Part shown: one piece after another, positions 3,698-33,334 of the stretch
Layout of the letters: the number at the start of each line of letters is the position of its first letter
Position numbering within the stretch: the first letter of the stretch is position 1
From: an uncultured delta proteobacterium
GTDB taxonomy: Bacteria; Myxococcota_A; UBA9160; JAFDET01
DNA length: 64,000 bases
Direction: 5' to 3'
Assembly: GCA_947259215.1 (NCBI GenBank)
Contig: CAMYLJ010000008.1
Coordinates: 153,256 to 217,255, forward strand
The notes under the pieces: model-generated
What the model saw: only the letters and a program-made list of their open reading frames with translations
Databases searched by the model: none
Told to the model about the DNA's origin: nothing
Made by a program: the position numbers and the translations under genes

Positions 3698-4036
3698 ATG
3701 AGCGAGGAGATCCCGGACCCGGCACCCGAGCACAGGCCCACGATCGTGGAGCGGGCGATCGCGACCCTGTTCGAAGAGTCCACACTGTGGCCGCTCCTCG
3801 CCGTGGTGCTCGGGCACGTGGCCGCCTTCCTGACGCCGGTGGTGATCCTCGCCCTGCGCGATCGGCGGCCGTCGGCGGGCGTGGCGCTCCTCGGGGCGAT
3901 CGTCCTCAGCGGCCTGGCGGTGCGGGCGGAGTGGTCGCGCGCGGGACGCCCGGGCCCGCAGGCTGCATTCGTCGTGCTCTCCTGGCTGCTCACCGGTGTG
4001 CTCGCCTGGGCGGCGAATCGCTGGCAGGTCTTCTGA
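3698..4036 (+). CDS. small hypothetical membrane protein (3 predicted TM helices)
   Basis: 112-aa ORF with hydrophobic segments LWPLLAVVLGHVAAFLTPVVILAL, GVALLGAIVLSGLAV and AFVVLSWLLTGVLAWAA. Sits directly upstream of the amine dehydrogenase cluster. No recognisable family. Confidence 0.5.
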   Translation: MSEEIPDPAPEHRPTIVERAIATLFEESTLWPLLAVVLGHVAAFLTPVVILALRDRRPSAGVALLGAIVLSGLAVRAEWSRAGRPGPQAAFVVLSWLLTGVLAWAANRWQVF

Positions 4037-4082
4037 GGCGCGGTCGTTGACAGCCCGCGGAGGCCTGTGGTCCCCTGCCCGG

Positions 4083-5333
4083 ATGGGTCGCCGGGCGCTC
4101 GCAGGGCTGCTTCTCGTCGGGCTTGCGGCCGCCGCCCGAGCCGACGTTCCCGTGGAGTCGCTGGGACGCGTCGAGACGCTGCCGCTGCCTCCGGGCCCCC
4201 ACTGGGCGTGGGTCGGCGATCCGGTCTTCCGGCACGCCACGCTCGTGGACCTGTCCGACGGCCGCACGCTCGGGATCGTGAACGCGGGTTTCGGGATGCC
4301 GACCGTGTTGACCCCCGCCGCGCGTCCGGAGTTCTACGTGGTGGAGACCCACTACTCGCGCGGCAGCCGCGGGGAGCGCAGCGACGTGCTCACCATCTAC
4401 GGCGGGCGGAGCCTGGCGGCCGAGGCGGAGGTGGTGCTGCCGCCGAAGCGCGCCCACGCCGCCAACACGGCCGGCATGCTGGCGCTCTCCGACGACGATC
4501 GCTTCGTCGCGGTCTTCAACCTGACGCCCGCCACGTCCCTCAGCATCGTCGACGTCGAGGCGCGCCGCTTCAGCGCCGAGATCGAGACGCCGGGCTGCAG
4601 CCTGGCCTACGCCGCCGGGCCACGCCGCTTCGTCAGCCTGTGCATGAACGGGGCGCTGATGCTGGTCGAGGTCGACGACGAAGGCCGTGAGGCGAGGAAG
4701 ACGCGCAGCGAGCCGTTCTTCGATCCCCAGCTGGACCCGGTGACGGAGAAGGCCGCCCGCTGGGAGGACCGCTGGCTGTTCGCGTCCTTCGAGAGCTGGA
4801 TCCATCCGGTGGACCTCTCGGGCGCGGCCCCCCGCTTCGAGGAGCGCTGGTCGCTGGTGAACGACGCCGAGCGCGTCGACGACTGGCGCATCGGCGGCAT
4901 GCAGCACCTGGCGGTGCACGAGCCGACGGGACGCCTGTACGCGCTGATGCACCGCGGGGGCCCCGACACCCACAAGCAGGGCGGTACCGAGGTCTGGATC
5001 TACGACCTGGCGAGCCGCGAGCGTCTCCAGCGGATCGAGCTGCACGGGCTGGGCTTCTCCTACCTGGGAGTCCCGCTTCGCGCCGAGGGCTTCACGGGCT
5101 GGCTGATCGACAAGCTCGCGGACTGGACCCTGGGCATGGCCCCGGACATCGCGGTCGACGCCATCGCGGTCACCCAGGACGCGGCTCCGCGGTTGGTGAC
5201 GGTCGGCGCGGTCTCGGGAGCGGTCGCGTCCTACGACGCGCTGACGGGCGAGTTCCTGGGCCGCGCCTACGTCGGAAACGCCACCAACGTGACCCTCTCC
5301 ACGCCCTTCGCCCGCACCGGAGGCTGGCGATGA
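4083..5333 (+). CDS. mauB: TTQ-dependent amine dehydrogenase heavy (large) subunit, methylamine/aromatic-amine dehydrogenase family
   Basis: 416 aa from ATG 4083 with signal peptide MGRRALAGLLLVGLAAAARA. Heavy-chain propeller signatures: EFYVVETHYSRGSRGERSDV, AERVDDWRIGGMQHLAVH, GGTEVWIYDLASRERL. The symbol denotes the family; substrate is unknown. Confidence 0.85.
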   Translation: MGRRALAGLLLVGLAAAARADVPVESLGRVETLPLPPGPHWAWVGDPVFRHATLVDLSDGRTLGIVNAGFGMPTVLTPAARPEFYVVETHYSRGSRGERSDVLTIYGGRSLAAEAEVVLPPKRAHAANTAGMLALSDDDRFVAVFNLTPATSLSIVDVEARRFSAEIETPGCSLAYAAGPRRFVSLCMNGALMLVEVDDEGREARKTRSEPFFDPQLDPVTEKAARWEDRWLFASFESWIHPVDLSGAAPRFEERWSLVNDAERVDDWRIGGMQHLAVHEPTGRLYALMHRGGPDTHKQGGTEVWIYDLASRERLQRIELHGLGFSYLGVPLRAEGFTGWLIDKLADWTLGMAPDIAVDAIAVTQDAAPRLVTVGAVSGAVASYDALTGEFLGRAYVGNATNVTLSTPFARTGGWR

Positions 5334-5896
5334 TCCGCGGCCTCTTCGTCGACCCGGCCGTGCAGGGTGCGCTCCACGCGAGTGCGGCGCTGCTCTTCGG
5401 CGCGGCGGCGTTGCACAAGCTGCGCGATCCGGCGGGCTTCCGCGCCTCCCTGGCGGGCTATCGACTGCTCCCCGCGCGTGCCGTGCCGACGGTCGCGGCG
5501 GGACTCGTGCTGTCGGAGCTTGCGCTGGCCGCGGGCTGCCTGGCGCCGGCGACGGCCCCGGCGGCCTGCCTCGCCGGTGCGGTGCTGGTCGTCGCCTACG
5601 CGTGCGCCGTCGGCGTGAACCTCGCTCGCGGCCGCCGCGCCATCGACTGCGGCTGCGGCGGGCCCGGAGGGCGGCGGCCGCTCTCGGCGGGGCTCGTGGT
5701 GCGCAACGTCGTGCTCGCCGCGCTGCTCGTGCTGGCGGCGCTGCCGGCTGGCGCGCGGTCGCTGGTCTGGCTCGACGCGCTCAGCGTGGCAGGCCTGGCC
5801 GCGCTGCTGGCGCTGGTCTACGCCTCTGCGGACGTGGCGCTCGCCAACGCCGCGCGGCTGCGCGACGCGGGAGGTCCGGCATGGTCGACGCGTTGA
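5330..5896 (+). CDS. mauE: MauE-family membrane protein (amine dehydrogenase accessory)
   Basis: 188 aa with 4 TM helices. ATGA overlap with the heavy-chain stop. Position and topology match mauE/aauE. Confidence 0.75.
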   Translation: MIRGLFVDPAVQGALHASAALLFGAAALHKLRDPAGFRASLAGYRLLPARAVPTVAAGLVLSELALAAGCLAPATAPAACLAGAVLVVAYACAVGVNLARGRRAIDCGCGGPGGRRPLSAGLVVRNVVLAALLVLAALPAGARSLVWLDALSVAGLAALLALVYASADVALANAARLRDAGGPAWSTR

Positions 5897-6495
5897 TCGT
5901 CTCCAACCTGGTCTTGTGGCTGGCGCTGGTGGTGCTCGCCGCCGTGGTGCTGGCGCTGCTGCGTCAGATCGGAATCCTGCACGAGCGGATCGCGCCGGCG
6001 GGTGCGCTGGTTGGCCGGGAGGGGCCGCGGCCGGGCGAGACGGCGCCGGTGGTGGAAGTGGAGGACTGGTCGGGCCTGCGGTTGCGACCGGGCGCACCGG
6101 ATCCGCAGGGCCGCGGCACCCTGCTCTTCTTCGTCTCGCCCACCTGCCCCGTCTGCAAGACCCTGCTGCCGGTGGCGCGCGCGGTGGCGGCGGCCGAAGA
6201 CGGTGGGCTCGCGCTGGTGGTGGCGAGCGACGGACCGCGCGAAGAGCACGTGGAGTTCGTGCGCGCGCACGACCTGGCGAACGGCAGCTACGTGCTCTCG
6301 ACGCCGCTCGTGCTGGCCTGGCAGGTGGGGCGCCTCCCGTACGCCGTCCTGCTGGACGCCGGCGGCGTGGTGCGTGCGCGCGGCCTCGTGAACACGCGCG
6401 AGCACCTGGAGAGCCTCTTCGAGGCGCGCGACCGCGGCGTGGCGTCGGTCCAGGAGTATCTCGGCCGAGACGCCCCGCCGCGGCGGGTGGCGTAG
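5881..6495 (+). CDS. mauD: MauD-family thioredoxin-fold accessory protein (CPVC)
   Basis: 204 aa from ATG 5881, overlapping mauE by 16 nt. N-terminal TM anchor, redox motif FFVSPTCPVCK, TlpA/MauD-like fold. Confidence 0.8.
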   Translation: MVDALIVSNLVLWLALVVLAAVVLALLRQIGILHERIAPAGALVGREGPRPGETAPVVEVEDWSGLRLRPGAPDPQGRGTLLFFVSPTCPVCKTLLPVARAVAAAEDGGLALVVASDGPREEHVEFVRAHDLANGSYVLSTPLVLAWQVGRLPYAVLLDAGGVVRARGLVNTREHLESLFEARDRGVASVQEYLGRDAPPRRVA

Positions 6496-6504
6496 GAGGG
6501 CGGC

Positions 6505-7056
6505 GTGGCGCGCATGGACCGTTGGATGACGGGATTCGCCCGGAGCCTGGCCCGGCGCACGTCGCGGCGAAGCGTGCTGGCGGGGATCGGAACCGCGCTC
6601 GTCGGCGGGGCGGCGGTGCCGCTGCTTCCGGTGGCGCGGGGCCGCGCCGAGCCGGCGCCGGGAGACCGGGTGACCCCGTCGGGCGAGCCGGATCCGACCA
6701 CGCCGGCGGGTGATCCCCAGGACTGCGGCTACTGGCGCTACTGCGCCGTCGACGGCTTTCTCTCGAGTTGCTGCGGCGGCAGCCACAACGCGTGCCCGCC
6801 CGGCACCCAGATGTCGCCCATCACCTGGCTCGGCACCTGCCGCAACCCGGCCGACGGCAAGGAGTACGTGATCTCCTACAACGACTGCTGCGGCAAGGAC
6901 GTCTGTGGCAGCTGCATCTGCCGCCGGCACGAAGGCGACAAGCCCGTCTACTACACGCCCAAGAGCAACGACATCGACTGGTGCATGGGCACCCGCGAGA
7001 TCATCTACAACTCGACGGTGGCGGTGGTGGTGGGTGTGGCCCGGGAGAAGGGGTGA
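6505..7056 (+). CDS. mauA: TTQ-dependent amine dehydrogenase light (small) subunit precursor
   Basis: GTG 6505 with GGAGG 6 nt upstream. Tat-type leader ..RRTSRRSVLAG.. Cys/Trp-rich mature part typical of the light chain: CGYWRYCAVDGFLSSCCGG, ITWLGTC, YNDCCGKDVCGSCIC, DIDWCMG. Confidence 0.85.
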   Translation: MARMDRWMTGFARSLARRTSRRSVLAGIGTALVGGAAVPLLPVARGRAEPAPGDRVTPSGEPDPTTPAGDPQDCGYWRYCAVDGFLSSCCGGSHNACPPGTQMSPITWLGTCRNPADGKEYVISYNDCCGKDVCGSCICRRHEGDKPVYYTPKSNDIDWCMGTREIIYNSTVAVVVGVAREKG

Positions 7057-7463
7057 GTCGCGCGGGCCTGGGCCTGGCGGCCCTCGCCCTGGCCCTGGCG
7101 GCACCCGCGCGCGGCGAGACGCCCGAGGTGAACTACCTGCTCCAGTGCCAGGGCTGCCACCTGCCCGACGGCAGCGGCAAGTCCGGCGCGGTCCCCGACC
7201 TGAAGGACCTGGGCCGCTTCCTCGCCGTACCCGGGGGTCGCGAGTACCTGGTGCGGGTTCCGGGCAGCGCCCAGTCGCCGCTGTCGGACGCGGACCTGGC
7301 CGCGCTCCTCAACTGGATGCTGCGCCGCTTCGGACCCGCAGCGATTGCCGACACCCTGGAGCCCTACACCCCCGAAGAGATCACGGCCCTGCGCCGTCCC
7401 CCCCTGGCCGATGTCGCCGCGACCCGTGCCCGCCTCCTCGCACGGCTGAGAGCAGGGGACTGA
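7053..7463 (+). CDS. small periplasmic monohaem c-type cytochrome
   Basis: GTG 7053 overlaps the light-chain stop (GTGA). Signal peptide, then a single CQGCH haem motif, with WM as a possible Met ligand. 136 aa. Confidence 0.7.
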   Translation: MSRAGLGLAALALALAAPARGETPEVNYLLQCQGCHLPDGSGKSGAVPDLKDLGRFLAVPGGREYLVRVPGSAQSPLSDADLAALLNWMLRRFGPAAIADTLEPYTPEEITALRRPPLADVAATRARLLARLRAGD

Positions 7464-7466
7464 ATC

Positions 7467-8480
7467 ATGGCCGAGCGCGCGGTCGCCGTGCTGGCGATGT
7501 CCCCGGTACTGACGGCCGACATGTGGACGCTGGAGCACCGGGAGCGGCTCGCGGCGTGCTGCGACGTGCCGGACGCGGAGCCGCTCGCGGACTTCGGCGA
7601 GCCGCGCGCGGAGTCCCTGCTGGCGCGCGCCGAGATCCTGCTGACGGGCTGGGGCTGCGCACGCCTCGACGCGCCGGTGCTCGAGCGCGCGCCCCGGCTG
7701 CGGGCCGTCGTGCATGCGGCGGGCACGGTGAAGCCCCTGGTCACGCCCGACTGCTTCGCGCGCGGGATCCGCGTCTCGTCGGCGGCGGCCGCCAACGCCC
7801 TGCCCGTGGCCGAGTACACGCTGGCCGCCATCCTCTTCGCGGGCAAGCGCGTCTTCCGCCTCCAGCGACGCTACGCCGAGCTGCGGGCCTTCCGGCTCTG
7901 GCCGCGGGAGCTTCCGGACCTCGGCAACCTGGACCGGGTCGTCGGGATCGTCGGCGCCTCCCGCATCGGGCGGCGGGTGATCGAGCTGCTGGCACCCTTC
8001 GACCTGTCGCTGCTGGTGCACGATCCCTACCTCTCCGACGCGGAGGCGCGAACGCTCGGAGTCGAGAAGCTGGACGACCTGGACGTGTTGCTGCGCCGGA
8101 GCGATGTGGTGAGCCTGCACGCGCCGGCGCTGCCGGAGACGCATCACATGCTCGACGCCCGGCGCCTGGCCCTGCTGCGGGACGGCGCCGTGCTCGTGAA
8201 CACGGCCCGCGGCTCCCTGGTCGAGCTCGACGCGCTGACCCGCGAGCTCGTCTCGGGTCGCATCGACGCGGTGATCGACACCAGCGAGCCCGAGGTCCTG
8301 CCCTCGGACTCGCCGCTCTTCGAGCTGCCGAACGTCTTCCTCACGCCGCACGTGGCCGGTGCCATGGGTCGCGAGACCCGCCGGCTGCTGGACCTGGCCC
8401 TGGACGAGATCGAGCGCCTCGTGCGCGGCGACCCCTTGCGCCACGAGGTGCGCGCCGAAGACTGGGACCGCATCGCATGA
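7467..8480 (+). CDS. D-isomer-specific 2-hydroxyacid dehydrogenase family protein (NAD-binding)
   Basis: 337 aa, starting 3 nt after the cytochrome stop. Motifs: GIVGASRIGRRV (GxGxxG), VVSLHAPALPETHHM, LVNTARG, TPHVAG. Confidence 0.8.
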   Translation: MAERAVAVLAMSPVLTADMWTLEHRERLAACCDVPDAEPLADFGEPRAESLLARAEILLTGWGCARLDAPVLERAPRLRAVVHAAGTVKPLVTPDCFARGIRVSSAAAANALPVAEYTLAAILFAGKRVFRLQRRYAELRAFRLWPRELPDLGNLDRVVGIVGASRIGRRVIELLAPFDLSLLVHDPYLSDAEARTLGVEKLDDLDVLLRRSDVVSLHAPALPETHHMLDARRLALLRDGAVLVNTARGSLVELDALTRELVSGRIDAVIDTSEPEVLPSDSPLFELPNVFLTPHVAGAMGRETRRLLDLALDEIERLVRGDPLRHEVRAEDWDRIA

Positions 8481-9283
8481 CGCAGCTCGGCTTCTGCTCG
8501 ATTTCGGCCCTCGACCGCTCCCTCGCCGACGCCGCGCGGGTCGCGGCGGCGTGCGGTTGCGACGGGGTCGAGGTGACGGATCGGCCGCCGCACCTCGAGC
8601 CGGGCGCCTCCCTCGACGCCGTGCGCGACGCGGGCGCGGCGGTGCGCGACGCCGGGATCGAGGTCGTCGCCTACGGCTCCTACCTGGGGCGTATGGGCGC
8701 GCGCACGCCCGAGCACGCGCGCCGCGAGGTCGAGGTCGCCGCCGCGCTCGGCACGCCGCTGCTGCGCGTGTGGGCGGAGCCGGACAACGGCGCGCCCGAC
8801 GCCGGCTTCGGCGACGTGGTCTCCCTGCTCATGGCGACCTGCGACGCGGCGGCCGAGCGCGGCGTGGAGGTGGTGGTGGAGCGCCACGTGGGATCGTTCG
8901 CCGACACGCCCGAACGGATCGACCGCCTCTTCGCCGCGGTGGCGCGCCCGAACCTGGCCCTGAACTACCAGGTGCTGGACTTCCTGCCGCCCGACGCGGT
9001 GTCGGCCCAGCCCGACGACGCGCGCCGGCTGGCTCCCCGGGCGCGCTACCTTCACCTCAAGAACTACCGGGCCAACCCGGATCCGGCGGGGCCGCTGGCG
9101 CCGGGAGGATCGCTGGCAGGCGGCGTGCTCGACTACCGCCCGATCCTGGCCGCGGTGCTGGAGTCCGGCTATGCCGGACCCATGACGCTCGAGTTCCTGT
9201 CGTGGGAACCGCTGCCGTTGGAGGAGAAGCTGGCCGCGGACGTGCGCCACGCGCGCGCGCTGCTGGCGGAGCTCGGCGCGTGA
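8477..9283 (+). CDS. sugar-phosphate isomerase/epimerase (xylose-isomerase-like TIM barrel) family protein
   Basis: ATG 8477 overlaps the previous stop (ATGA). 268 aa. The pattern ..GCDGVEV.., LGTPLLRVW, VVVERHVGSF, YLHLKN, MTLEF is typical of AP-endonuclease-2/xylose-isomerase-like TIM barrels. Confidence 0.7.
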   Translation: MTQLGFCSISALDRSLADAARVAAACGCDGVEVTDRPPHLEPGASLDAVRDAGAAVRDAGIEVVAYGSYLGRMGARTPEHARREVEVAAALGTPLLRVWAEPDNGAPDAGFGDVVSLLMATCDAAAERGVEVVVERHVGSFADTPERIDRLFAAVARPNLALNYQVLDFLPPDAVSAQPDDARRLAPRARYLHLKNYRANPDPAGPLAPGGSLAGGVLDYRPILAAVLESGYAGPMTLEFLSWEPLPLEEKLAADVRHARALLAELGA

Positions 9284-10719
9284 GCACACGCTTCCCCCGG
9301 GTGGCCTCCCTGAAGAGCCCGGCCGGGCTGCGCGCGCGGCTGGCCGAGCTCGGCGTCGCTCTCCCGTGTGACGACAAGATCGCCCCGGCAGGGACGTCGC
9401 CCCTCGCCGAGCCGCTCGCGCTGGGCGACGGACTCGCCGCTCCCAACCGGTTCGTAGTGCAGCCCATGGAGGGCTGGGACGGCACGCCGGAGGGCCTGCC
9501 CTCGGAGCTCACCCGCCGCCGCTGGCAGCGCTTCGGCCAGAGCGGCGCCGGCTGGATGTGGGGCGGCGAGGCGGTGGCGGTGCGTCCCGATGGGCGCGCG
9601 AACCCTCACCAGCTGGTGGCGTCGCCGGAGACGGCCGCGTCGCTCGGACGGCTGCGGGTCGCGCTGCTCGAGGCGGCGCGCGACGCTGGGCATCCGGAGC
9701 CCGTGGTGGGCCTCCAGCTCACCCACAGCGGCCGCTGGTCGCGGCCCGCGGCCGGCGGCCGCGCGCCGCGGATCGCCTTCCGGCATCCGATCCTCGATCC
9801 GCGGGTCGAAGCCGACGCTGCGGCGCTTCTCTCGGACGAGGAGCTTCCGGGCCTGGTGGCGGCCTTCGCCGACGCCGCGCGGCTGGCCGAGGCCGAGGGC
9901 TACGCCTTCGTGGACGTGAAGCACTGCCACGGCTACCTGCTGCACGAGTTCCTGGCGGCGCGCGGGCGCGCGGGCCGCTACGGCGGCGCGTCTCTGGAGG
10001 CGCGCGCGCGCCTTGGGCTCGAGATCGTCGAGGCCGTGCGCAAGGCGGCGCCCTCGCTGCGCCTGGGCGTGCGCCTCTCGCTCTTCGACGGCGTGCCGCA
10101 TCGCACGTCTCCCGACGGAGCCCGCGGCGAGCCCGAGCCCCACGCGACGCCCTACCTGCTCGGCTTCGGCGTCGACGCCGAGGCGCCCGAACGCATGGAC
10201 CTGACGGAGCCCGTCGCACTGGTGCGCGCCCTGGCCGAGCGCGGGGTCGGCTGGATCAACGTGACCGCGTCGAGCCCCTACTACGCGCCCCATCTCCAGC
10301 GCCCCGCCACGTTTCCGCCGAGCGACGGCTACCCGCCGCCGGAGGACCCGCTGCTCGGAGTGGCGCGCCTGCTGGGCGCGGCCCGCGAGCTGAAGCGCGC
10401 GCTCCCCGAGCTGGTGGTGGTGTCGTCGGGCTGGAGCTACCTGCAGGACTTCCTGCCCCACGTGGCCCAGGCCTGCCTGCGCGAGGGCTGGTTCGACGCG
10501 GTGGGGCTCGGTCGCATGGTCCTGTCCTACCCGGAGCTGCCGGCGGACGTGCTGGCGGGACGCCCTCTCGCGCGCGGGAAGATCTGCCGCACCTTCAGCG
10601 ACTGCACCACGGCGCCGAGGCAGGGCCTGGTCTCGGGCTGCTACCCCCTCGACGACTTCTACCGCCAGCGTCCGGAGCGCGCCGCGCTGGAGACGGCGAA
10701 GCGGAGCGCGGCCGGGTGA
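9280..10719 (+). CDS. NADH:flavin oxidoreductase, Old Yellow Enzyme-like (FMN TIM barrel)
   Basis: GTG 9280 overlaps the previous stop (GTGA). 479 aa. Motifs: NRFVVQPMEG, GLQLTHSGR, GYAFVDVKHCHGYLLHEFL, RLGVRLS, GRMVLSYPELP. Confidence 0.7.
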   Translation: MSTRFPRVASLKSPAGLRARLAELGVALPCDDKIAPAGTSPLAEPLALGDGLAAPNRFVVQPMEGWDGTPEGLPSELTRRRWQRFGQSGAGWMWGGEAVAVRPDGRANPHQLVASPETAASLGRLRVALLEAARDAGHPEPVVGLQLTHSGRWSRPAAGGRAPRIAFRHPILDPRVEADAAALLSDEELPGLVAAFADAARLAEAEGYAFVDVKHCHGYLLHEFLAARGRAGRYGGASLEARARLGLEIVEAVRKAAPSLRLGVRLSLFDGVPHRTSPDGARGEPEPHATPYLLGFGVDAEAPERMDLTEPVALVRALAERGVGWINVTASSPYYAPHLQRPATFPPSDGYPPPEDPLLGVARLLGAARELKRALPELVVVSSGWSYLQDFLPHVAQACLREGWFDAVGLGRMVLSYPELPADVLAGRPLARGKICRTFSDCTTAPRQGLVSGCYPLDDFYRQRPERAALETAKRSAAG

Positions 10720-11702
10720 GCGACCTCGCGCGCGCGTGGCAACGCCTGGCCGGCGGTCGCACCCTGCATGGGATCGCCGCGGCGCTCCTGCCCTACCGCG
10801 AGGACGGATCGATCGCCTGGGGAGCGTTCGCGCGTCACGTGGCGGCCAGCCACGGCGCCGGCCTCGCTGTGGCGGTGAACATGGACACGGGCTTCGGCGA
10901 CCTGCTCTCGCCGAAGCAGCGGGAGTCGGTGCTCGACGCCACCCGCGCGGCCCTGGGCGAGGGCGTCGTCTTCTGGGCCGGCGCGTACGCGGATCCGGAC
11001 CCGGCCGCGGGCTGGCGCCGCTCCGTCGAGGCGATCGTGGCGCGCGGCGCCCGGCCGGTGCTGGTGCAGAGCCCGGCGCTGCGCGGCCTGGCGCCGGCCG
11101 AGAAGGCGGCGCGCTACGCCGCCGCCGCCGAGGCCGCGCCCGAGGGCGTCCTGGCCTTCGAGCTCTCGCCTCGCTTCGCTCCCCACGGCGAGATCTGGGA
11201 CGCTGAGACCTTCGCGCGCGTGCTGGAGCTGCCCGCGATCCGCGGCGCCAAGCACTCGTCCCTGGACCGCACCCTCGAGCTGCGGCGCCTGGCCGCACGC
11301 GACGCCGCGCGACCCGACTTCCGGGTCTACACCGGCAACGACCTCGCCATCGACATGGTGGCCTACGGGAGCGACTACCTGCTCGGCCTCGCGGCCTTCG
11401 CGCCCGCCGCCTTCGCGGCCCGCGACCGGGCGCTCGCGGGCGGTGCGCTCGATTTCCTGGCCCGAAACGACGCCCTCCAGCACCTGGGGAACGTGGGCTT
11501 CCGCGAGCCGATCCCCGCCTACAAGCACGCCGCCGCCCAGTTCCTGCACCTGGTGGGCGAGCTCGACGGCGACGCGATCCACCCGCGCGCACCGCGGCGT
11601 CCCGGATCGGACCGCGTGCTGCTCTTCGACTGCGCCCGGCGTCTCGATCTGCTGGACGATCCCGAGCGCACCTGGCGCGAGCGCGTCGAGCCCTACCTCT
11701 GA
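10716..11702 (+). CDS. dihydrodipicolinate synthase/N-acetylneuraminate lyase-family (class I aldolase-like) protein
   Basis: GTG 10716 overlaps the previous stop (GTGA). 328 aa. DHDPS-like layout with candidate Schiff-base Lys in IRGAKHSS. The GTTGE-equivalent region (NMDTGFGD) is divergent. Confidence 0.6.
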   Translation: MSDLARAWQRLAGGRTLHGIAAALLPYREDGSIAWGAFARHVAASHGAGLAVAVNMDTGFGDLLSPKQRESVLDATRAALGEGVVFWAGAYADPDPAAGWRRSVEAIVARGARPVLVQSPALRGLAPAEKAARYAAAAEAAPEGVLAFELSPRFAPHGEIWDAETFARVLELPAIRGAKHSSLDRTLELRRLAARDAARPDFRVYTGNDLAIDMVAYGSDYLLGLAAFAPAAFAARDRALAGGALDFLARNDALQHLGNVGFREPIPAYKHAAAQFLHLVGELDGDAIHPRAPRRPGSDRVLLFDCARRLDLLDDPERTWRERVEPYL

Positions 11703-15413: not shown

Positions 15414-18400
15414 ATGGATCGGAACCGACTTCTGTGGCGGTCGCGAAACCCGCTCCTGGCGCTGGGACTCGTTGCGGTGCTCGGCGCGGGCTGCGGCCCT
15501 GCGCTTCCCCAGGTGGGCCATCAGCTCTTCACCAGTCCCCAGCTGAACCCCATCCTGGTGGTGCCGGACATGCACCTGCTGGTGGTGGCCAACACCACGA
15601 GCGGCACGGTGTCCGTGCACGACTACCGCCAGCTCGATGCGCCCGAGCACGGCCTGCGGGCGGAGATCCCGGTGGGCCTCGACCCGGTGGGGCTCGCGCT
15701 GCGACCGGACTCGGCCCAGGTCTACGTCGCCAACTACATCTCCGACACGATCAGCGTGATCGACCTCGAGCGCCTGGACGTGGTGGCCACCGTCCAGGGG
15801 GATCGCGATCCCACCACGGGCATTCCCACCACCGACGCGCCCGTGGGCATCGAATTCTCCAGCCCCACCCGCGCCTTCGTGACCCTCGACGACAACGACG
15901 AGGTGGTGGTGATCGATACGGACCCGGACGGCAGCAACCCGCGCGTCACGGGCCGGCTGCCGTTCTACGCCCAGGCGCCGCGGGCCCTGGCCGTCGTGGG
16001 CGACTACGTCTACGTCGCCTCCTTCGAGTCCGAGAACCAGACCGAGTTCCCGACCTGCGCGCCGGACGACCCGAGGCTTACGATCAACGGCGGGCCGGGC
16101 CTCATGCGCAGCGATCCCTACGACGAGGGCTGCGAGTTCGCCACCGAGGTGCTCGAGTCCGTCAACGTCTCGCTGATGGACGGCGATCTCGACTTCGGCC
16201 TCGAGCTGGGCACGATCTTCGATTTCGCCGCGGTGAATCCGAACATCGGCGGCGAGGTCATCCTCGACCGGGATCGCCCGGACCGCGACCTCTTCATCTA
16301 CCGGGCGAGCGACCTCCAGCCGGTGGGCCACGTGGAGGGGATCGGCACGCTCCTCTACGGCATGAAGGAGGTCGCCGGGCGGCTCTGGATCACGAACACC
16401 GACGCCCGCAACGACCGCGACGGACTCTTCCAGCTCGGGAACCGCATGTTCGAGAACCGGGTGAGCTACCTGGATTGCGCGGGCGGCGCCTGCAGCGCGC
16501 CGGTCGCGGTGGACCTGGAAGCCAACCCCTTCGGCATCCCGGTCCCGACGCCCTACGGCATCCAGGCCAAGGCGGACGGCTCCCTGCTGGTGGTGAGCGT
16601 CGCCGGCTCGGACGGCATCCCCGGCATCGCGGGCGACCCGGGGCGGAGCATCCCCGGCCTCGTCACCCTGGACGGCCAGGGCAACGTGCTGGGCCACGTG
16701 CGGACCGGCGCCATCCCCCAGGGCCTGGCGCTGCACTCCTGGGTTCCTGGCGGTGGTGAGGAGATGGCGTTCGTGCTGAACACCGTGGACAGCACGGTCT
16801 CGGCCGTCGACCTCAGCGACCCGACGGATCCGCGGGTGTGGGTGACGTTCGAGGTGGGTTCGGACCCCACGCCGGCGCCGATCCGGGAGGGGCGCGTCAT
16901 GTTCTCCTCGGCGCGGGCGTCCACCAGCGGCACCTTCTCGTGCGAGTCGTGCCACCCGAACGGCAACATGGATCAGCTCCTCTGGACCATCAATGCGGAC
17001 CTGGCGCCCGCGGACTATCCGGTCGACGCGCCCTGCGACGTCGACGCCGAGAACTGCCCGGAGCCCCGCACCACCATGCCGATCCGGGGCCTGCGCGACA
17101 CGCTGCCGCTCCACTGGATGGGCAGCCTGGCCGACCCCTTCCAGAACGTGGAGGGCCAGCGCGTGCAGCCCGAGGACGAGGCCGCGCCCGACTGCGACCT
17201 GGCGCTGGACGGCGAGGTGGGCTGTGCCCGCCACCTGGTGGACGCCAGCCTGAGCGGCGTCATGTGCGCCCCGGCTTCGGGCGGCGGCTGCTCGCTGGCG
17301 GGCCCCTCCGGGCTGCCGGGCGCCCTCAGCGACGCCGAGCGCGACGCCATGGCGGCCTTCATGCTGGCCGTGGCGTACCCGCCGCCGCCGGCGCGCCGCG
17401 ACGACGACCGGCTGACGGAGCTGGCGCTGGACAACCTGCCGGCGCGCGAGGGCTTCTCGGACTTCTTCACAGATCTCGACGGGCTCGGGGTCGGCAGCCC
17501 CTCCAACAACATCGGGCAGGTCGTGGGCTTCGCGCCGGTGACCTGCGCTGACAACGCGGGCGGCTGCCACTCGCTGCCGCTCACGAACGACACCAACTCC
17601 ACCACGGTGGGCGGCTTCGACGTGCCCTCCATGCGGGGCCTCTGGGACCGCTCGATCCTCTTCTCCAACGGCAACATCAGCTCCGAGGAGTGGATGCGGC
17701 TCGCCCAGGACTGTGCCGACGGCAACGCGCCCGGTGGCCATCCCAGGGTCTCCGTCTTCGGGTTCCCGCAGCCGAACCTGATCACGGGCGACCCGTGCGC
17801 GCTGCAGTCGGTGCTCTTCGGCGGGGGGGGCGGCGGCGGCGTCCCCCCGCTTCCAGGCCTCGGCAACGTGATCCTGGATCCCTTCGGCGTGCCCAGCGGC
17901 GAAGAGATCTACCGGCCCGACGATCCGACGAGCCCGGTCAGCTACATGACCGAGCGCGGCCAGTTCGTGGGCTCCTTCGAGGCCATCTTCCACCTGGCCT
18001 ACGGCGTGCGCGGCGGGCCGATGTGGCAGTTCCTGAGCGAGATGAGCCTGGGCTTCCCGGGGCTGGTGGGACGCCAGATCAGCCTCGCGTCCGACACGCT
18101 CTCGGATCCTCAGGCGTTGGCGCTCCTCGACCTGATGCAGCGCTACGCCGACGAGGGCCGCATCACGCTGGTGGCGCGCAACCGCGAGCACGGCGAGTGG
18201 CGCTTCTCGGACGGTCTCTGGCGCCTGCTGGGCGGGGAGGGCGACGCCCTCGACGGCCCGGACCTGCTGGAGTGGGTGGCGTCGCAGGGCGCGGTCTACA
18301 CCGTCACCGCCCACCTGCCCGGCGGCGTCAGCATCGGTGGCGAGGACCGGCAGATCCTGCTCGACATCGATCCCGACCTGCGGGCCGCCGAGTTCGCCGG

Positions 18401-18704
18401 CGACCTGCTCCCGGTGCCGATCCCCGAGCCGCTGAACCAGCCCGGCGAGGTGATCCGGGTCGGGGCCTGGAACGTGGCGCCGGACGCGGTGGTGATCGTC
18501 GACGGGGATCGCTGCGCCAGCTGCAGCTGGGTCGCCGGCGTCGCGGGCACGGGCGATCCGGTGCTCGACGTGAACCTCGGCCCCGCCCGGACCCCGGGCG
18601 TTCACGCCGTGCAGCTTCTCAACCCCGGTGGCTGGATGAGCAACGAATTGCCGATCCGGGTGCTCGACGCGGCGGCGATCCCGCCGCCGGCCCCGGCTCC
18701 GTAG
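15414..18704 (+). CDS. 1096-aa exported (possibly lipidated) protein: YVTN/lactonase-type beta-propeller repeats plus a cytochrome-c-peroxidase-like CXXCH region
   Basis: ATG 15414. Signal peptide ending LGAGC. Propeller repeats (VYVANYISDTISVIDL, AFVLNTVDSTVSAVDL). One CXXCH (FSCESCHPNGNMDQLLW) and a second C-x6-CH (TCADNAGGCH). C-terminal region of unknown function. Confidence 0.85.
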   Translation: MDRNRLLWRSRNPLLALGLVAVLGAGCGPALPQVGHQLFTSPQLNPILVVPDMHLLVVANTTSGTVSVHDYRQLDAPEHGLRAEIPVGLDPVGLALRPDSAQVYVANYISDTISVIDLERLDVVATVQGDRDPTTGIPTTDAPVGIEFSSPTRAFVTLDDNDEVVVIDTDPDGSNPRVTGRLPFYAQAPRALAVVGDYVYVASFESENQTEFPTCAPDDPRLTINGGPGLMRSDPYDEGCEFATEVLESVNVSLMDGDLDFGLELGTIFDFAAVNPNIGGEVILDRDRPDRDLFIYRASDLQPVGHVEGIGTLLYGMKEVAGRLWITNTDARNDRDGLFQLGNRMFENRVSYLDCAGGACSAPVAVDLEANPFGIPVPTPYGIQAKADGSLLVVSVAGSDGIPGIAGDPGRSIPGLVTLDGQGNVLGHVRTGAIPQGLALHSWVPGGGEEMAFVLNTVDSTVSAVDLSDPTDPRVWVTFEVGSDPTPAPIREGRVMFSSARASTSGTFSCESCHPNGNMDQLLWTINADLAPADYPVDAPCDVDAENCPEPRTTMPIRGLRDTLPLHWMGSLADPFQNVEGQRVQPEDEAAPDCDLALDGEVGCARHLVDASLSGVMCAPASGGGCSLAGPSGLPGALSDAERDAMAAFMLAVAYPPPPARRDDDRLTELALDNLPAREGFSDFFTDLDGLGVGSPSNNIGQVVGFAPVTCADNAGGCHSLPLTNDTNSTTVGGFDVPSMRGLWDRSILFSNGNISSEEWMRLAQDCADGNAPGGHPRVSVFGFPQPNLITGDPCALQSVLFGGGGGGGVPPLPGLGNVILDPFGVPSGEEIYRPDDPTSPVSYMTERGQFVGSFEAIFHLAYGVRGGPMWQFLSEMSLGFPGLVGRQISLASDTLSDPQALALLDLMQRYADEGRITLVARNREHGEWRFSDGLWRLLGGEGDALDGPDLLEWVASQGAVYTVTAHLPGGVSIGGEDRQILLDIDPDLRAAEFAGDLLPVPIPEPLNQPGEVIRVGAWNVAPDAVVIVDGDRCASCSWVAGVAGTGDPVLDVNLGPARTPGVHAVQLLNPGGWMSNELPIRVLDAAAIPPPAPAP

Positions 18705-20011: not shown

Positions 20012-22619
<2,608 letters not shown>

Positions 22620-22672
22620 GGGGAGGGCGCGCGATCCGGGGAGTCCTCGCAGCGGTCGTCGGGATCGTCATC

Positions 22673-23692
22673 GTGGCTGCGGTGGCGTGGTTGCTCGCTC
22701 GCGGAGGCGGTGTCGGTCCGACAGCGCCTCCTCCCACCACCGCTTCGGAAGCGAGCCCCGCGCCGACGACTGCCGCGCAGGACGCCACCGCGGTCGCGCG
22801 GCGACGGGAGCTGGAGTCCGTGCGTGGGAGCGACCCCGACGGCGAGCTCACGCTCGGCCCCGACGGACACTTCCTGCCGTCCGCCGCAGCGTTGCGTTTC
22901 TTCGACTACTTCCTGAGCGCCCGGGGAGAGGTTCCCCTCGAGACCCTGCGCGACCGCGTGGCGGTGGAGATCGACGCGCGCCTGGATCCCCCGGCCGACG
23001 CCGAGGCCCGGGAGTTGCTGGTGGCCTATCTCGCCTACCTGGACGCGGCCGCCGAGCTGCCCGAGCTGGGCCTCGCCCACGACGAGCTGGAGCGACGCCT
23101 GCAGCGATTGCGCGAGCTCCGCCGGGAGCACTTCGGCGTCCAGGCCGAGGTGCTGTTCGCGGAGGAAGACGCCATGGCGGTGGTGGCGATCGAGCGCCGG
23201 CGCATCCTGGACGACCCGACCCTTACCGACATGGAGCGGATCCGCCTGCTGGCCCAGGTGCAGGAGCAGCTTCCGGACGACGTGCGCCGCGCCGAGGCCG
23301 AGGCCATGCTGCCCCTGCGGCTCGCCCAGGAGGAGCAGCGCCTGCGCGGGGAGGGGGCCAGCGAGGAAGACATCCGGGCCATGCGCGAGAGCGCGATCGA
23401 CGATCCCGAGGCGCTGGACCGCCTGGAGGGCGTGGATCGGCAGCGCGCGGAGTGGGACGCGCGCATGCAGGCCTACCGCGCGGAGCGCGACCAGGTGCTG
23501 GGCCGCCTCGGGCCAGAGGCTGGCGACGGCGCCCGCTGGCGCTTCATTCGCGCGGTGCGCAGCCGGCACTTCGAGCCGGAGGAGCTCCCGCGCGTCGAGG
23601 CCCTGGACCGGATCGAGTCCCGCGACCGGGGCGAGGGCTGGATCCCGGGCGGCCAGCCGCGCGTGCCCTCGCCGCCTCCGGTCACCCCCTGA
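22673..23692 (+). CDS. lif: lipase-specific foldase (Lif chaperone)
   Basis: Lif signature ALRFFDYFLSARGE, a long helical E/R/A-rich body, and a position immediately after lipA. 22673 is the first canonical start (GTG), but it lies inside the TM anchor. The anchor (RGVLAAVVGIVIVAAVAWLLA) begins at an in-frame ATC at 22634 preceded by GGAGG (see findings). Confidence 0.8.
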   Translation: MAAVAWLLARGGGVGPTAPPPTTASEASPAPTTAAQDATAVARRRELESVRGSDPDGELTLGPDGHFLPSAAALRFFDYFLSARGEVPLETLRDRVAVEIDARLDPPADAEARELLVAYLAYLDAAAELPELGLAHDELERRLQRLRELRREHFGVQAEVLFAEEDAMAVVAIERRRILDDPTLTDMERIRLLAQVQEQLPDDVRRAEAEAMLPLRLAQEEQRLRGEGASEEDIRAMRESAIDDPEALDRLEGVDRQRAEWDARMQAYRAERDQVLGRLGPEAGDGARWRFIRAVRSRHFEPEELPRVEALDRIESRDRGEGWIPGGQPRVPSPPPVTP

Positions 23693-30191: not shown

Positions 30192-30210
30192 GCGCCGGAG
30201 CGACGCTTCG

Positions 30211-30669
30211 TCAGGCTGTCCGGTCCACGGCGCGGCGGCTCGACGTAGCCGGGACCGACGCGTCGGCGCGTGCGAGTCGGGGCAGGAAGACGAGGGGCCA
30301 GATCGCGAGGAAGAGGTTGGCCGCCCACCAGCTCGGATCGAAGTCGAGGCGGATGGCCCAGAACGAGACGGCCATGAAGCCGGCGCAGAAGGTGAGCGCC
30401 AGGGAGAAGGCCGCGAGCGGCCGCCACGAGGGATCGCCGCGGGAGTGCCGCCGGACGGCGAGCAGCCCGCAGACCGAGAGCAGCATGTCGAGCGGGAAGA
30501 AGGACCAGTTCCAGGCGTAGACGATCGGATCGTCGTAGTCCTTGAAGAGCCACGCCTCCGGAACCACCTCCAGACCCATCCGGATCAGGAGCGAGACGGA
30601 CCAGTAGAGGATGAAGCCGACGTCGGTCAGGAGGACGAATGGCTTCATGCGCTTCATGACGTCGTCCAT
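30211..30669 (-). CDS. hypothetical integral membrane protein (4 TM)
   Basis: 152 aa from ATG 30669 (MDDVMKRMKPFVLLTDVGFILYW). The upstream part of the 272-aa ORF is shadow. Confidence 0.6.
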   Translation of the reverse strand: MDDVMKRMKPFVLLTDVGFILYWSVSLLIRMGLEVVPEAWLFKDYDDPIVYAWNWSFFPLDMLLSVCGLLAVRRHSRGDPSWRPLAAFSLALTFCAGFMAVSFWAIRLDFDPSWWAANLFLAIWPLVFLPRLARADASVPATSSRRAVDRTA

Positions 30670-31012
30670 GTCTTGGCCTTTCTCGGCGCCGGGCCGGGCA
30701 CGCGCTGCGGCGCGCATCCGGAATGTTCCACAGTCGGACCGCGGCGCCTCGTCGCGGTACGGACTCCGGGCGATTTCCCGCGGGAAGCCCGCCTCCGCGG
30801 ACGCGCCCGGCCCCGCCTCGAGCGCTGGCCGTGACAGGCAACGGGCCCTCCGGATCCGGCCTTCGGGCGGGTACGCGCGGATCCGCGCTTCGGAGCGCTG
30901 CTGGACGAGATGGCGGGCCAGTGGATCGCGTACCTCGAAGCCCGCGAGCCCTCGAGCTGGACGGGCCGTTCGGGGATCTGCTGCGCGAGGACCTGGAGGC
31001 CCTGCGCGCCCG

Positions 31013-31510
31013 CTAGCGCGTCCGGGCAAGGGCGCGCCGCGCCGCTGCGTCGGCGTGCCGACCGAGCGCCTGCGCGAACTTCCAGACCGGGACCACCGCC
31101 AGGGCGAACCCGATCCAGGCCGGCAGGTAGTAGAGGGTGATGTGGCCGTGGCTGAAGTCGCTGGCCCAGCCGTGCTGGTAGCGCCAGGGCTCGAGCCCCA
31201 GACGTTCGTAGCCGGCGCCGAAGCTCCACTCCACCGCGTAGATGATGATCACGCTGAGGGGCACGCGCACGGCGAGCCGCATCAGCCCGAGGTGCTCCGC
31301 CGCGGCCAGCAGCGGGCCGATCATCAGGTACACCGCGGTGTAGACCGGGATCATCAGCAGGGACACGCTGCCCTTGAAGCTCCCCTCCCACCCGACGACG
31401 GCGCCGGTGAAGACGACCTCCGTGCAGAGCCCGAACATCGAGAAGAGGGCCGCGCCCCAGATCGCGGAGCCGCGAGCGGTCGGACCCGGCGCTTCGAGGC
31501 TGGCCTGCAC
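31013..31510 (-). CDS. hypothetical integral membrane protein (4-5 TM)
   Basis: About 165 aa. GTG 31510 was chosen so that the first TM (AIWGAALFSMFGLCTEVVFTGAVV) is included. Lies 34 nt downstream of the GGDEF-EAL gene on the same strand. Start is uncertain. Confidence 0.55.
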   Translation of the reverse strand: MQASLEAPGPTARGSAIWGAALFSMFGLCTEVVFTGAVVGWEGSFKGSVSLLMIPVYTAVYLMIGPLLAAAEHLGLMRLAVRVPLSVIIIYAVEWSFGAGYERLGLEPWRYQHGWASDFSHGHITLYYLPAWIGFALAVVPVWKFAQALGRHADAAARRALARTR

Positions 31511-31544
31511 GACCGCGAGCGTACCGGAGCGCGGCCCGCTCGTC

Positions 31545-33326: not shown

Positions 33327-33334
33327 CGCAGGCG

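What the first reader, a model, noticed from the sequence alone, without database searches (positions are those of the whole stretch)
3698..7463. TTQ amine dehydrogenase cluster with B-E-D-A + monohaem cytochrome c layout and no MauG/MauF/amicyanin nearby
Seen: heavy chain (4083), MauE-like (5330), MauD-like CPVC protein (5881), a Tat-leader light chain rich in Cys/Trp (6505) and a 136-aa CQGCH cytochrome (7053) are packed with overlapping or adjacent stop/start codons. Nothing in the 64 kb looks like a cupredoxin, a MauF, or a canonical di-haem MauG. Established knowledge: classical mau clusters of methylotrophs include amicyanin and MauG, which completes TTQ biosynthesis. The aromatic-amine dehydrogenase (aau) cluster of Alcaligenes faecalis has the shorter B-E-D-A order followed by a small monohaem cytochrome c, and it lacks mauF/G/L/M/N. 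Inference: this enzyme belongs to the aau-like branch, probably uses the cytochrome as electron acceptor, and its substrate cannot be assumed to be methylamine. How TTQ is matured here is an open question.
Basis: partly seen in the sequence, partly recalled or inferred. Interest (0 to 1): 0.6.

Follow-up and report, generated by a model that had tools for sequence, protein, structure and literature searches.

The report
Aromatic-amine-type quinoprotein amine dehydrogenase operon
This is an intact five-gene operon for a periplasmic amine dehydrogenase with a tryptophan-derived quinone cofactor, of the same layout as the Alcaligenes aromatic amine dehydrogenase cluster; the enzyme is ordinary, but its small haem protein has lost the usual methionine iron ligand and is fused to the cofactor-making enzyme MauG in some relatives.

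Summary
Window 4083-7463 (+) encodes, with overlapping or near-adjacent stop and start codons:
- a TTQ dehydrogenase heavy chain;
- MauE;
- MauD (CPVC);
- a Tat-leader light chain that keeps both TTQ tryptophans and the catalytic Asp;
- a 136-aa CQGCH haem protein.

No MauF, MauG, MauJ/M/N, amicyanin or other cupredoxin lies anywhere in the 64 kb.

The aau-like reading is largely right. The haem protein is an orthologue of A. faecalis aau orf-2 (41% identity, E 8e-31). In 75 of 76 related loci that carry mauE or mauD, it follows the light chain. None of these loci has mauG within 10 kb.

However, the enzyme is not inside the AADH clade. It belongs to a large, uncharacterised sister lineage (Myxococcota, Binatia, Halieaceae, Sphingomonadales and others). 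Its substrate gate also differs (Asp158, and a shortened heavy-chain loop).

"The cytochrome is the electron acceptor" is unproven. The orf-2 family is a Thermus c552-like fold in which the loop carrying the Met69 ligand is deleted. It persists next to canonical cytochromes. In Pseudohongiella-type clusters it is fused to a genuine MauG.

Verdict: a new member of a known kind. Interest is moderate and rests mainly on the haem protein.

The parts
4083..5333 (+). TTQ amine dehydrogenase heavy (alpha) chain, 416 aa. Sec-type signal MGRRALAGLLLVGLAAAARA. Beta-propeller.
   Evidence: PF06433, E 3.9e-34. Best solved relative is A. faecalis AADH at 160 bits, against 106 bits for MADH. TIGR02658 scores 119.5 bits, far below its equivalog cut-off of 454. 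The active-site loop equivalent to MADH alphaPhe55 (DPAHF) reads DPVFR and is followed by a 5-residue deletion.
5330..5896 (+). MauE-type membrane protein, 188 aa, with a CGC motif. Likely a DsbB-like thiol oxidase that re-oxidises MauD.
   Evidence: PF07291, E 1.3e-24. IDCGCGG motif. The start overlaps the heavy-chain stop (ATGA). The DsbB-like role of MauE is taken from bioRxiv 10.64898/2026.03.05.709764.
5881..6495 (+). MauD, 204 aa. Membrane-anchored periplasmic thioredoxin-fold protein with CPVC. Forms the light-chain disulfides.
   Evidence: TIGR02661 (MauD equivalog) scores 215.7 bits, above its cut-off of 188.6. CPVC motif. 16-nt overlap with mauE.
6505..7056 (+). TTQ light (beta) chain precursor, 183 aa, with a twin-arginine leader (TSRRSVL). 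TTQ tryptophans W108 and W159; catalytic D127; D83; 12 Cys.
   Evidence: PF02975, E 8.2e-47. AADH scores 139 bits and P. denitrificans MADH 114 bits over the mature domain. Invariant columns align to MADH betaTrp57, betaTrp108, Asp76 and Asp32. Asp158 sits at the MADH betaIle107 gate position.
7053..7463 (+). aau orf-2-type periplasmic monohaem c protein, 136 aa. Signal peptide, then CQGCH. c552-like fold without the Met-ligand loop.
   Evidence: 41% identical to A. faecalis orf-2 (E 8e-31) and 50% to the Achromobacter copy (2e-35). AlphaFold model pLDDT 85; best solved match is Thermus c552, TM 0.65. The family profile hits c552 at E 1e-20, with c552 residues 50-69 replaced by PG. No conserved Met or His besides CxxCH in 82 sequences. 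GTGA overlap with the light-chain stop.
3698..4036 (+). Probably not part of the system.
   Evidence: No Pfam or NCBIfam match. No homologue in any of the 85 related loci. No similarity to MauF.
7467..11702 (+). Four tightly coupled downstream genes: D-2-hydroxyacid dehydrogenase, xylose-isomerase-like TIM barrel, OYE-type flavin oxidoreductase and DUF993. Possibly the same transcript; not conserved with the module.
   Evidence: Pfam matches. A 3-nt gap after the haem gene, then 4-nt overlaps between the genes. Almost no homologues next to the module elsewhere.

Best explanation
Window 4083-7463 is an intact, translationally coupled operon for a periplasmic alpha2beta2 tryptophan tryptophylquinone (TTQ) primary-amine dehydrogenase. 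It has the aau (aromatic amine dehydrogenase) architecture, but it belongs to a distinct, widespread and uncharacterised sister lineage of AADH.

Shown:
- All five proteins match their families.
- The light chain keeps both TTQ tryptophans (W108, W159), the catalytic Asp127 and Asp83.
- The fifth gene is an orthologue of A. faecalis aau orf-2.
- No MauF, MauG, MauJ, MauM, MauN or amicyanin is encoded in the 64 kb, nor within 10 kb of the module in the 82 non-duplicate related loci scanned.

Inferred mechanism:
- The Tat-leader light chain reaches the periplasm. MauD (DsbA-like, CPVC) installs its six disulfides and is re-oxidised by the membrane protein MauE (DsbB-like, CGC).
- TTQ is completed by a MauG-type dihaem enzyme encoded elsewhere in the genome.
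- The mature enzyme oxidises a primary amine, probably larger than methylamine and possibly polar or charged, to the aldehyde plus ammonia.
- The two electrons leave through the orf-2-type haem protein into the periplasmic cytochrome pool. I put this last step at about 0.5. The haem protein occupies the slot that amicyanin holds in mau clusters. But it is an atypical c552 homologue without a Met ligand, so a role in TTQ biogenesis is a serious alternative.

The confidence of 0.8 applies to the identity and general mechanism of the operon, not to the electron-acceptor step.
For: Family matches.

Conserved catalytic and cofactor residues.

Gene coupling.

Orthology of the fifth gene with aau orf-2.

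Conservation of the cassette:
- At least 588 GTDB species encode a light-chain relative, and the best 80 were fetched.
- 75 of 76 loci with mauE or mauD also have the orf-2-type gene. The one exception is cut by a contig end.
- Full B-E-D-A-cyt order is detected in 59 of 82 loci, with unrelated flanks.

Absence of the mau accessory genes and amicyanin.

Electron-carrier reading of the haem protein:
- Homology to the electron carrier Thermus c552.
- Same position as amicyanin in the P. denitrificans cluster.
- Followed by about-190-aa dihaem cytochromes in gammaproteobacterial members.
- Fused to canonical cytochrome c domains next to light or heavy chains.

Non-methylamine substrate:
- MADH equivalog models score below their cut-offs.
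- The beta107 position is Asp or Asn rather than Ile.
- The alphaPhe55 loop is altered.
- Relatives sit beside aldehyde dehydrogenase, TonB receptor, acyl-CoA ligase and beta-ketoadipate genes.
Against: - No biochemical data exist for any member of this lineage.
- The substrate is unknown, and the window has no adjacent aldehyde dehydrogenase.
- The haem protein lacks the axial Met, and no other ligand is conserved. This is unusual for an electron carrier.
- It is retained even where a canonical Met-ligated cytochrome is encoded in the same cluster.
- From established knowledge, AADH of A. faecalis reduces azurin, not orf-2.
- The existence of an unlinked mauG in this genome could not be checked.
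- Light-chain identity is only modestly higher to AADH than to MADH (53% vs 46%). The tree has a single MADH outgroup.
Confidence: 0.8

Rival explanations
1. The orf-2-type haem protein is a TTQ-biogenesis factor rather than the respiratory acceptor. Either it is the dedicated redox partner of a MauG-type enzyme, or it is itself a peroxide- or oxygen-activating haem that replaces part of MauG's role.
For: - Fusion proteins with an N-terminal orf-2 domain and a C-terminal MauG domain occupy the slot right after the light chain (P0481 in L088; P0509 in a Pseudohongiella B-E-D-A-fusion cluster).
- The MauG part scores 254 bits to P. denitrificans MauG, against 137 for BthA and about 50 for peroxidases. 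It keeps Trp93 and Tyr294.
- The Met69-bearing loop of c552 is deleted and no sixth ligand is conserved, which suggests an open or unusual haem site.
- The protein is retained next to canonical cytochromes.
- Distribution is complementary: clusters with orf-2 lack a separate mauG, and the P. denitrificans mau cluster has mauG but no orf-2.
Against: - The fusions come from one small lineage and have long Pro/Thr-rich linkers. They could be a neutral fusion of adjacent genes.
- MauG works without such a partner in Paracoccus.
- The fold and closest homologue are those of an electron carrier.
- Downstream dihaem and canonical cytochromes point to an electron-transfer chain.
- No catalytic distal residues can be named.
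Confidence: 0.25
2. It is a true functional orthologue of aromatic (aralkyl)amine dehydrogenase (EC 1.4.9.2). It oxidises phenylethylamine- or tyramine-type amines and hands electrons to an unlinked azurin, as in A. faecalis.
For: - Same gene order and an orthologous orf-2.
- The heavy chain is closer to AADH.
- AADH-type Cys pair, and a polar beta107 residue.
- A clade member on N. aromaticivorans pNL2 lies between aromatic dioxygenase/amidase genes and beta-ketoadipate genes.
Against: - The light chain is outside the 100%-supported AADH clade.
- Heavy-chain identity to A. faecalis AauB is 28%.
- The window subclade has Asp instead of Asn at the gate, a 5-residue deletion in the active-site loop, and has lost one otherwise universal disulfide.
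- The window has no cupredoxin and no aromatic-catabolic neighbours.
Confidence: 0.2
3. It is a classical methylamine dehydrogenase for methylotrophic growth, and its amicyanin, mauF and mauG lie elsewhere in the genome.
For: Public annotations call the relatives 'methylamine dehydrogenase light chain'. The Pfam families are the same.
Against: - MADH equivalog models are far below their cut-offs: 119.5 vs 454 for the heavy chain, 160.5 vs 197 for the light chain.
- The gate residues betaIle107 and alphaPhe55 are not conserved.
- The cluster lacks every mau-specific gene.
- The orf-2 orthologue ties it to the aau type.
Confidence: 0.05
4. The cluster is an inactive remnant, because TTQ cannot be made without a linked mauG.
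For: No MauG in 64 kb.
Against: - All five ORFs are intact, with the genome's coding signature (GC3 about 0.9).
- All catalytic and cofactor residues are kept.
- The same mauG-less cassette is conserved across several phyla, including A. faecalis. From established knowledge, the enzyme is active there.
Confidence: 0.03

Closest known systems
aau cluster (aauB-E-D-A-orf2) and aromatic amine dehydrogenase of Alcaligenes faecalis
   Same: Identical gene order. The orf-2 haem protein is orthologous (41% identity; 50% to Achromobacter). There is no mauF/G/J/M/N or amicyanin in the cluster. The heavy chain is the best solved match. The light chain shares the AADH-specific extra Cys pair and a polar residue at MADH position beta107.
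   Different: The light chain lies outside the AADH clade (53% identity). The heavy chain is only 28% identical. The gate residue is Asp rather than Asn, the active-site loop carries a 5-residue deletion, and one universal disulfide is lost in the window subclade. The flanks lack the aldehyde dehydrogenase, outer-membrane channel and AraC regulator seen in Alcaligenes and Achromobacter.
mau cluster and methylamine dehydrogenase of Paracoccus denitrificans (mauRFBEDACJGMN)
   Same: Same B-E-D-A core. Same TTQ tryptophans, Asp76 and Asp32. MauD is at equivalog level. The light chain has a Tat-type leader.
   Different: No MauF, amicyanin, MauJ, MauG, MauM or MauN. A haem protein sits where amicyanin sits. 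The gate residues differ. The equivalog scores for both subunits are below their cut-offs.
Thermus thermophilus cytochrome c552 (PDB 1C52)
   Same: Best structural and profile match of the fifth gene product: TM 0.65, 32% identity, profile E 1e-20. It shares the N-terminal CxxCH and the C-terminal helical extension.
   Different: c552 residues 50-69, which include the axial ligand Met69, are replaced by an invariant Pro-Gly. No substitute ligand is conserved.
MauG (dihaem TTQ-forming enzyme)
   Same: In Pseudohongiella-type TTQ clusters, a genuine MauG domain (254 bits, Trp93 and Tyr294 kept) is fused to the orf-2-type domain directly after the light chain.
   Different: The window encodes no MauG-like protein. 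The only other CxxCH protein is a 1096-aa beta-propeller protein at 15414-18704, which shows only a local peroxidase-like haem motif.

Membership tests
TTQ-dependent amine dehydrogenases (MADH/AADH superfamily) | Light chain of the Me-amine-dh_L family | tested here: met
   PF02975, E 8.2e-47. 139-154 bits to solved AADH and MADH light chains.
TTQ-dependent amine dehydrogenases (MADH/AADH superfamily) | The two tryptophans that form TTQ, plus the catalytic Asp (MADH betaTrp57, betaTrp108, Asp76, Asp32) | tested here: met
   W108, W159, D127 and D83 are invariant in alignments with AADH and MADH.
TTQ-dependent amine dehydrogenases (MADH/AADH superfamily) | Beta-propeller heavy chain encoded with MauE and MauD accessory genes | tested here: met
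   PF06433, PF07291 and TIGR02661.
TTQ-dependent amine dehydrogenases (MADH/AADH superfamily) | TTQ cofactor actually formed, and amine oxidation activity | not testable with these tools
   Needs protein chemistry.
Methylamine dehydrogenase (amicyanin) equivalogs | Scores above the NCBIfam equivalog cut-offs for both subunits | tested here: not met
   TIGR02658: 119.5 vs 454.45. TIGR02659: 160.5 vs 196.85.
Methylamine dehydrogenase (amicyanin) equivalogs | Linked mauF, amicyanin and mauG | tested here: not met
   No phmmer hit at E <= 1 in any six-frame ORF of the window. No PF03150 or cupredoxin.
Methylamine dehydrogenase (amicyanin) equivalogs | Small-substrate gate residues betaIle107 and alphaPhe55 | tested here: not met
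   Asp158 at beta107. Arg plus a 5-residue deletion at the alphaPhe55 loop. The role of these residues comes from established knowledge.
aau-type cluster / aromatic amine dehydrogenase | Gene order B-E-D-A followed by the orf-2 monohaem protein, without mauF/G/L/M/N | tested here: met
aau-type cluster / aromatic amine dehydrogenase | Light chain groups inside the AADH clade | tested here: not met
   The AADH clade of 14 sequences has 100% bootstrap support and excludes the window, which sits in a separate 40-sequence group.
aau-type cluster / aromatic amine dehydrogenase | Activity on aromatic primary amines, with azurin as acceptor | not testable with these tools
   No cupredoxin in the window. 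Substrate unknown.
Class I c-type cytochromes (c552-like) | CxxCH haem attachment and the class I fold | tested here: met
   CQGCH motif. Foldseek TM 0.65 to 1C52. Profile E 1e-20.
Class I c-type cytochromes (c552-like) | Conserved Met (or His) sixth ligand | tested here: not met
   No conserved Met or His in 82 sequences; some mature domains have no Met at all. The Met69 loop of c552 is deleted.

The most novel reading that the evidence does not exclude
The orf-2-type haem protein, conserved after the light chain in every mauG-less TTQ cluster examined, is not an ordinary electron carrier. It would be a c552 derivative with an open or unusual haem site that takes part in making TTQ. It could be the missing redox partner of a MauG-type enzyme, or it could itself carry out an oxidative step. 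That would explain how AADH-type enzymes mature without a linked mauG.
Probability: 0.25. Interest if true: 0.7.

Novelty: new member of a known kind. Interest (0 to 1): 0.4.

Why it matters
The enzyme itself adds little. It is one of thousands of environmental TTQ dehydrogenases that databases label 'methylamine dehydrogenase'.

Three points are useful.
- That label is probably wrong for a very large lineage. At least 588 GTDB species encode a relative of the light chain. The 80 closest span Myxococcota, Binatia and several proteobacterial orders, and their clusters are aau-type with a non-MADH gate.
- The function of aau orf-2 has been unassigned since the cluster was sequenced. Here it becomes a defined, TTQ-cluster-specific haem module with a deleted Met loop.
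- Natural fusions of that module to MauG, and genetically tractable hosts that carry the cassette (for example Novosphingobium aromaticivorans pNL2), make the question of how AADH-type TTQ enzymes are matured and re-oxidised directly testable.

Tried and rejected
- Exact look-up of the window light chain found no source contig. The organism is inferred only from its closest relatives, which are Myxococcota and 'Deltaproteobacteria' MAGs.
- The 112-aa ORF at 3698-4036 was considered as a MauF substitute and rejected. It has no family, no MauF similarity and no conservation.
- The 1096-aa beta-propeller protein at 15414-18704 (single CESCH) was considered as a cryptic MauG. Only a local haem-motif similarity to dihaem peroxidase-fold proteins was found (hydrazine synthase gamma E 0.06; hhalign probability 15% against a MauG fusion). 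Just one other locus has a homologue. Left as inconclusive.
- A search for conserved neighbours that could reveal the substrate found none for the window. Aldehyde dehydrogenase, TonB receptor, acyl-CoA ligase and TetR recur only in proteobacterial members.
- A tblastn of MauG against plasmids and secondary replicons found no MauG-like gene on replicons that carry aau-type clusters. These are only parts of genomes.
- The promoter and terminator scan was uninformative in this 74% GC region.
- Literature searches found nothing on this lineage or on orf-2 function. The description of the original aau cluster rests on my recollection of Chistoserdov 2001, and the locus retrieved matches it.

Full report
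OBSERVATION

The window is 70-75% G+C. Between 4083 and 7463 on the + strand lie five ORFs with the coding signature of the genome (GC3 about 0.9). Their matches:
- Heavy chain, 4083-5333: PF06433, E 3.9e-34.
- MauE, 5330-5896: PF07291, E 1.3e-24.
- MauD, 5881-6495: TIGR02661, 215.7 bits, above its cut-off of 188.6.
- Light chain, 6505-7056: PF02975, E 8.2e-47.
- A 136-aa signal-peptide protein with one CQGCH, 7053-7463. It has only sub-threshold cytochrome c matches.

The junctions are ATGA, a 16-nt overlap, a 9-nt gap containing GGAGG, and GTGA. The MauD motif is CPVC, MauE has CGC, and the light chain has 12 Cys and a TSRRSVL twin-arginine leader.

ABSENCES

- I predicted 52 genes in the window and scanned nearly all of them against Pfam. 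There is no CCP_MauG domain and no cupredoxin.
- Only two in-frame CxxCH motifs exist, at 7146 and at 16941.
- I retrieved the canonical P. denitrificans cluster (mauR-F-B-E-D-A-amicyanin-J-G-M-N). I ran its MauF, amicyanin, MauJ, MauG, MauM and MauN with phmmer against every six-frame ORF of the window. There was no hit at E <= 1, while MauB, E, D and A hit strongly.

RELATIONSHIP TO AADH AND MADH

- Against solved structures, the heavy chain scores 160 bits to A. faecalis AADH and 106 bits to MADH.
- Over the mature domain, the light chain scores 139 bits to AADH and 114 bits to P. denitrificans MADH.
- Both NCBIfam MADH equivalog models are well below their cut-offs.
- Alignment with AADH and MADH shows W108, W159, D127 and D83 at the positions of MADH betaTrp57, betaTrp108, Asp76 and Asp32.
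- The window shares an extra Cys pair with AADH (MADH positions beta39 and beta83). It has Asp at the betaIle107 gate position, where AADH has Asn.
- In a neighbour-joining tree of 57 light chains, the AADH group (Alcaligenes, Achromobacter, Cupriavidus, Rhodocyclales) has 100% bootstrap support and excludes the window. The window lies in a separate group of 40 sequences, within a 91%-supported Myxococcota-type subclade.
- That subclade has lost one Cys pair that is otherwise universal.
- The subclade also has a 5-residue deletion in the heavy-chain loop that carries alphaPhe55 in MADH.
- Heavy-chain identity is 28% to A. faecalis AauB, 36% to the Achromobacter copy and 26% to MauB.

So the enzyme is aau-like but forms a third lineage. 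It is not an AADH orthologue in the narrow sense.

THE CASSETTE IS CONSERVED AND WIDESPREAD

- The light chain has 4277 relatives at E <= 1e-5 in the protein collection. The top 120 are 63-99% identical, and those that carry a source name come from Myxococcota or 'Deltaproteobacteria' MAGs.
- A scan of one genome per GTDB species found at least 588 species with a relative. The best 80 come from Myxococcota, Binatia, Halieaceae, Cellvibrionaceae, Pseudomonadales, Parvibaculaceae, Sphingomonadales and one Planctomycetota MAG. They include cultured strains.
- In 82 non-duplicate loci, 76 have mauE or mauD, and 75 of those have a homologue of the fifth gene. The exception is cut 149 bp after the light chain.
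- Flanking genes differ from locus to locus.
- None of the loci has a MauG-sized dihaem ORF or any phmmer hit to MauG, MauF or amicyanin within 10 kb.

THE FIFTH GENE IS AAU ORF-2

I fetched the A. faecalis locus through its light chain. It reads: aldehyde dehydrogenase, outer-membrane channel, B, E, D, A, a 166-aa ORF, an AraC regulator, an ORF, then hemE. This matches my recollection of the published aau cluster. The 166-aa ORF is 41% identical to the window protein (E 8e-31). The Achromobacter copy is 50% identical (2e-35).

THE HAEM PROTEIN IS ATYPICAL

- In 82 distinct family members, only the two Cys, the Gly between them and the His of the CxxCH motif (CxGCH), plus one Pro, the Pro-Gly of the VPG motif and two Arg, are invariant; a third Arg and a Glu are kept in 81 of 82.
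- No Met, His, Lys or Tyr is conserved. The window's Met89 is Met in 24 of 82. Thirty-six sequences lack Met at both candidate columns, and some mature domains contain no Met at all.
- An AlphaFold model (pLDDT 85) matches Thermus c552 best (TM 0.65). The family profile hits c552 at E 1e-20.
- In that alignment, c552 residues 50-69 pair with only the invariant Pro-Gly. I confirmed the c552 sequence against 1C52. From established knowledge, residue 69 is the axial Met.
- The family is thus a c552 derivative that has lost the ligand loop.

It is also not redundant with ordinary cytochromes. Plasmid clusters in Paracoccus sp. SMMA_5 and P. aeruginosa RW109 encode a canonical Met-ligated cytochrome and then an orf-2-type protein. 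N. aromaticivorans pNL2 has a canonical cytochrome upstream and the orf-2 type downstream.

FUSIONS

A search of 1.84 billion representatives found 1224 family members. Several are fusions.
- Canonical cytochrome c domain(s) plus the orf-2 domain. These are encoded immediately next to TTQ light or heavy chains.
- An orf-2 domain followed by a CCP_MauG domain, in two representatives.
- In a Pseudohongiella MAG, the cluster is B-E-D-A-fusion. In another contig, the fusion directly follows a light chain.
- The C-terminal part scores 254 bits to P. denitrificans MauG, against 137 for BthA and about 50 for peroxidases. It keeps Trp93 and Tyr294 but not Trp199.

Every orf-2 domain whose context I examined lies in a TTQ cluster.

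INTERPRETATION

- The identity of the operon is secure.
- Its maturation follows the known logic for disulfides. MauD as a DsbA-like partner comes and established knowledge.
- For TTQ formation, I infer an unlinked MauG-type enzyme. That family is far more widespread than the light chain, and A. faecalis makes active enzyme from the same mauG-less cassette.
- For the haem protein, I favour a dedicated electron acceptor or relay (about 0.5). It holds the amicyanin slot, descends from an electron carrier, and is followed by or fused to further cytochromes.
- The missing ligand, the retention beside canonical cytochromes, the complementary distribution with mauG and the MauG fusions keep a biogenesis role alive (about 0.25).

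The substrate cannot be named.
- The gate is polar or charged (Asp158, and Arg at the alpha55 position).
- Proteobacterial relatives sit with aldehyde dehydrogenase, TonB receptor and acyl-CoA ligase, or with aromatic ring-cleavage genes.
- The window itself continues into four coupled oxidoreductase or isomerase genes that no relative shares.

VERDICT

Interest is moderate (0.4). It comes from what the comparison reveals about the orf-2 haem module and about mislabelled 'methylamine dehydrogenases', rather than from this locus itself.

Noticed in passing
window 15414-18704 (+): A 1096-aa protein with an N-terminal YNCE/lactonase-like beta-propeller. It carries the only other CxxCH in the window (FSCESCHPNG) and a possible degenerate second site (CADNAGGCH). 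There is weak local similarity to dihaem peroxidase-fold proteins (hydrazine synthase gamma, E 0.06). A homologue with two CxxCH motifs lies within 10 kb of the TTQ cassette in L068.
   Followed up: partly
window 7467-11702 (+): Four genes follow the haem gene with a 3-nt gap and then 4-nt overlaps, so they may be co-transcribed. They are a D-2-hydroxyacid dehydrogenase, a xylose-isomerase-like TIM barrel, an OYE-type flavoprotein and DUF993. No other TTQ locus shares them.
   Followed up: partly
L089 10001-11776; L088 303-1928: Natural fusions of the orf-2-type haem domain to a genuine MauG domain, placed directly after the TTQ light chain (Pseudohongiella MAG and a Logan contig). Their light chains have Ser instead of Asp at the MADH Asp32 position.
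   Followed up: yes
L041, L065, L079, L083 (about 2.5 kb upstream of the complete cassette): A second heavy-plus-light chain pair without its own mauE, mauD or haem gene lies directly upstream of a complete B-E-D-A-cyt cassette. L020, L025, L064 and L072 have only such B-A pairs. This suggests that paralogous dehydrogenases share one set of accessory genes.
   Followed up: no
L042, L046, L048, L052, L053, L055, L056, L082 (just downstream of the orf-2-type gene): In Cellvibrionaceae and Halieaceae members, an ORF of about 190 aa with two CxxCH motifs about 88 residues apart (cytochrome c4-like) follows the orf-2-type gene.
   Followed up: no
window 6505-7056 and the seven closest light chains: A coordinated loss of both cysteines of one disulfide that is present in MADH, in AADH and in the rest of the clade (FLC to FLS, HCT to NST). 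It coincides with Asp at the gate position.
   Followed up: partly
window 30000-36000: A lower-GC stretch (0.67-0.70, against 0.72-0.75 elsewhere) holding signalling genes on the minus strand: a response-regulator GGDEF-EAL protein, PilZ and cNMP-binding proteins, and a LuxR-type response regulator.
   Followed up: no
window 50679-53522 (+); L004 3725-6823 (-): A large MFS-like membrane protein fused to a spermidine-synthase-like domain. A 34%-identical homologue lies about 800 bp upstream of the TTQ cassette in L004. In the window it is 43 kb away.
   Followed up: no
window 21681-23692 (+): An alpha/beta-hydrolase lipase followed by a proteobacterial-type lipase chaperone (PF03280).
   Followed up: no
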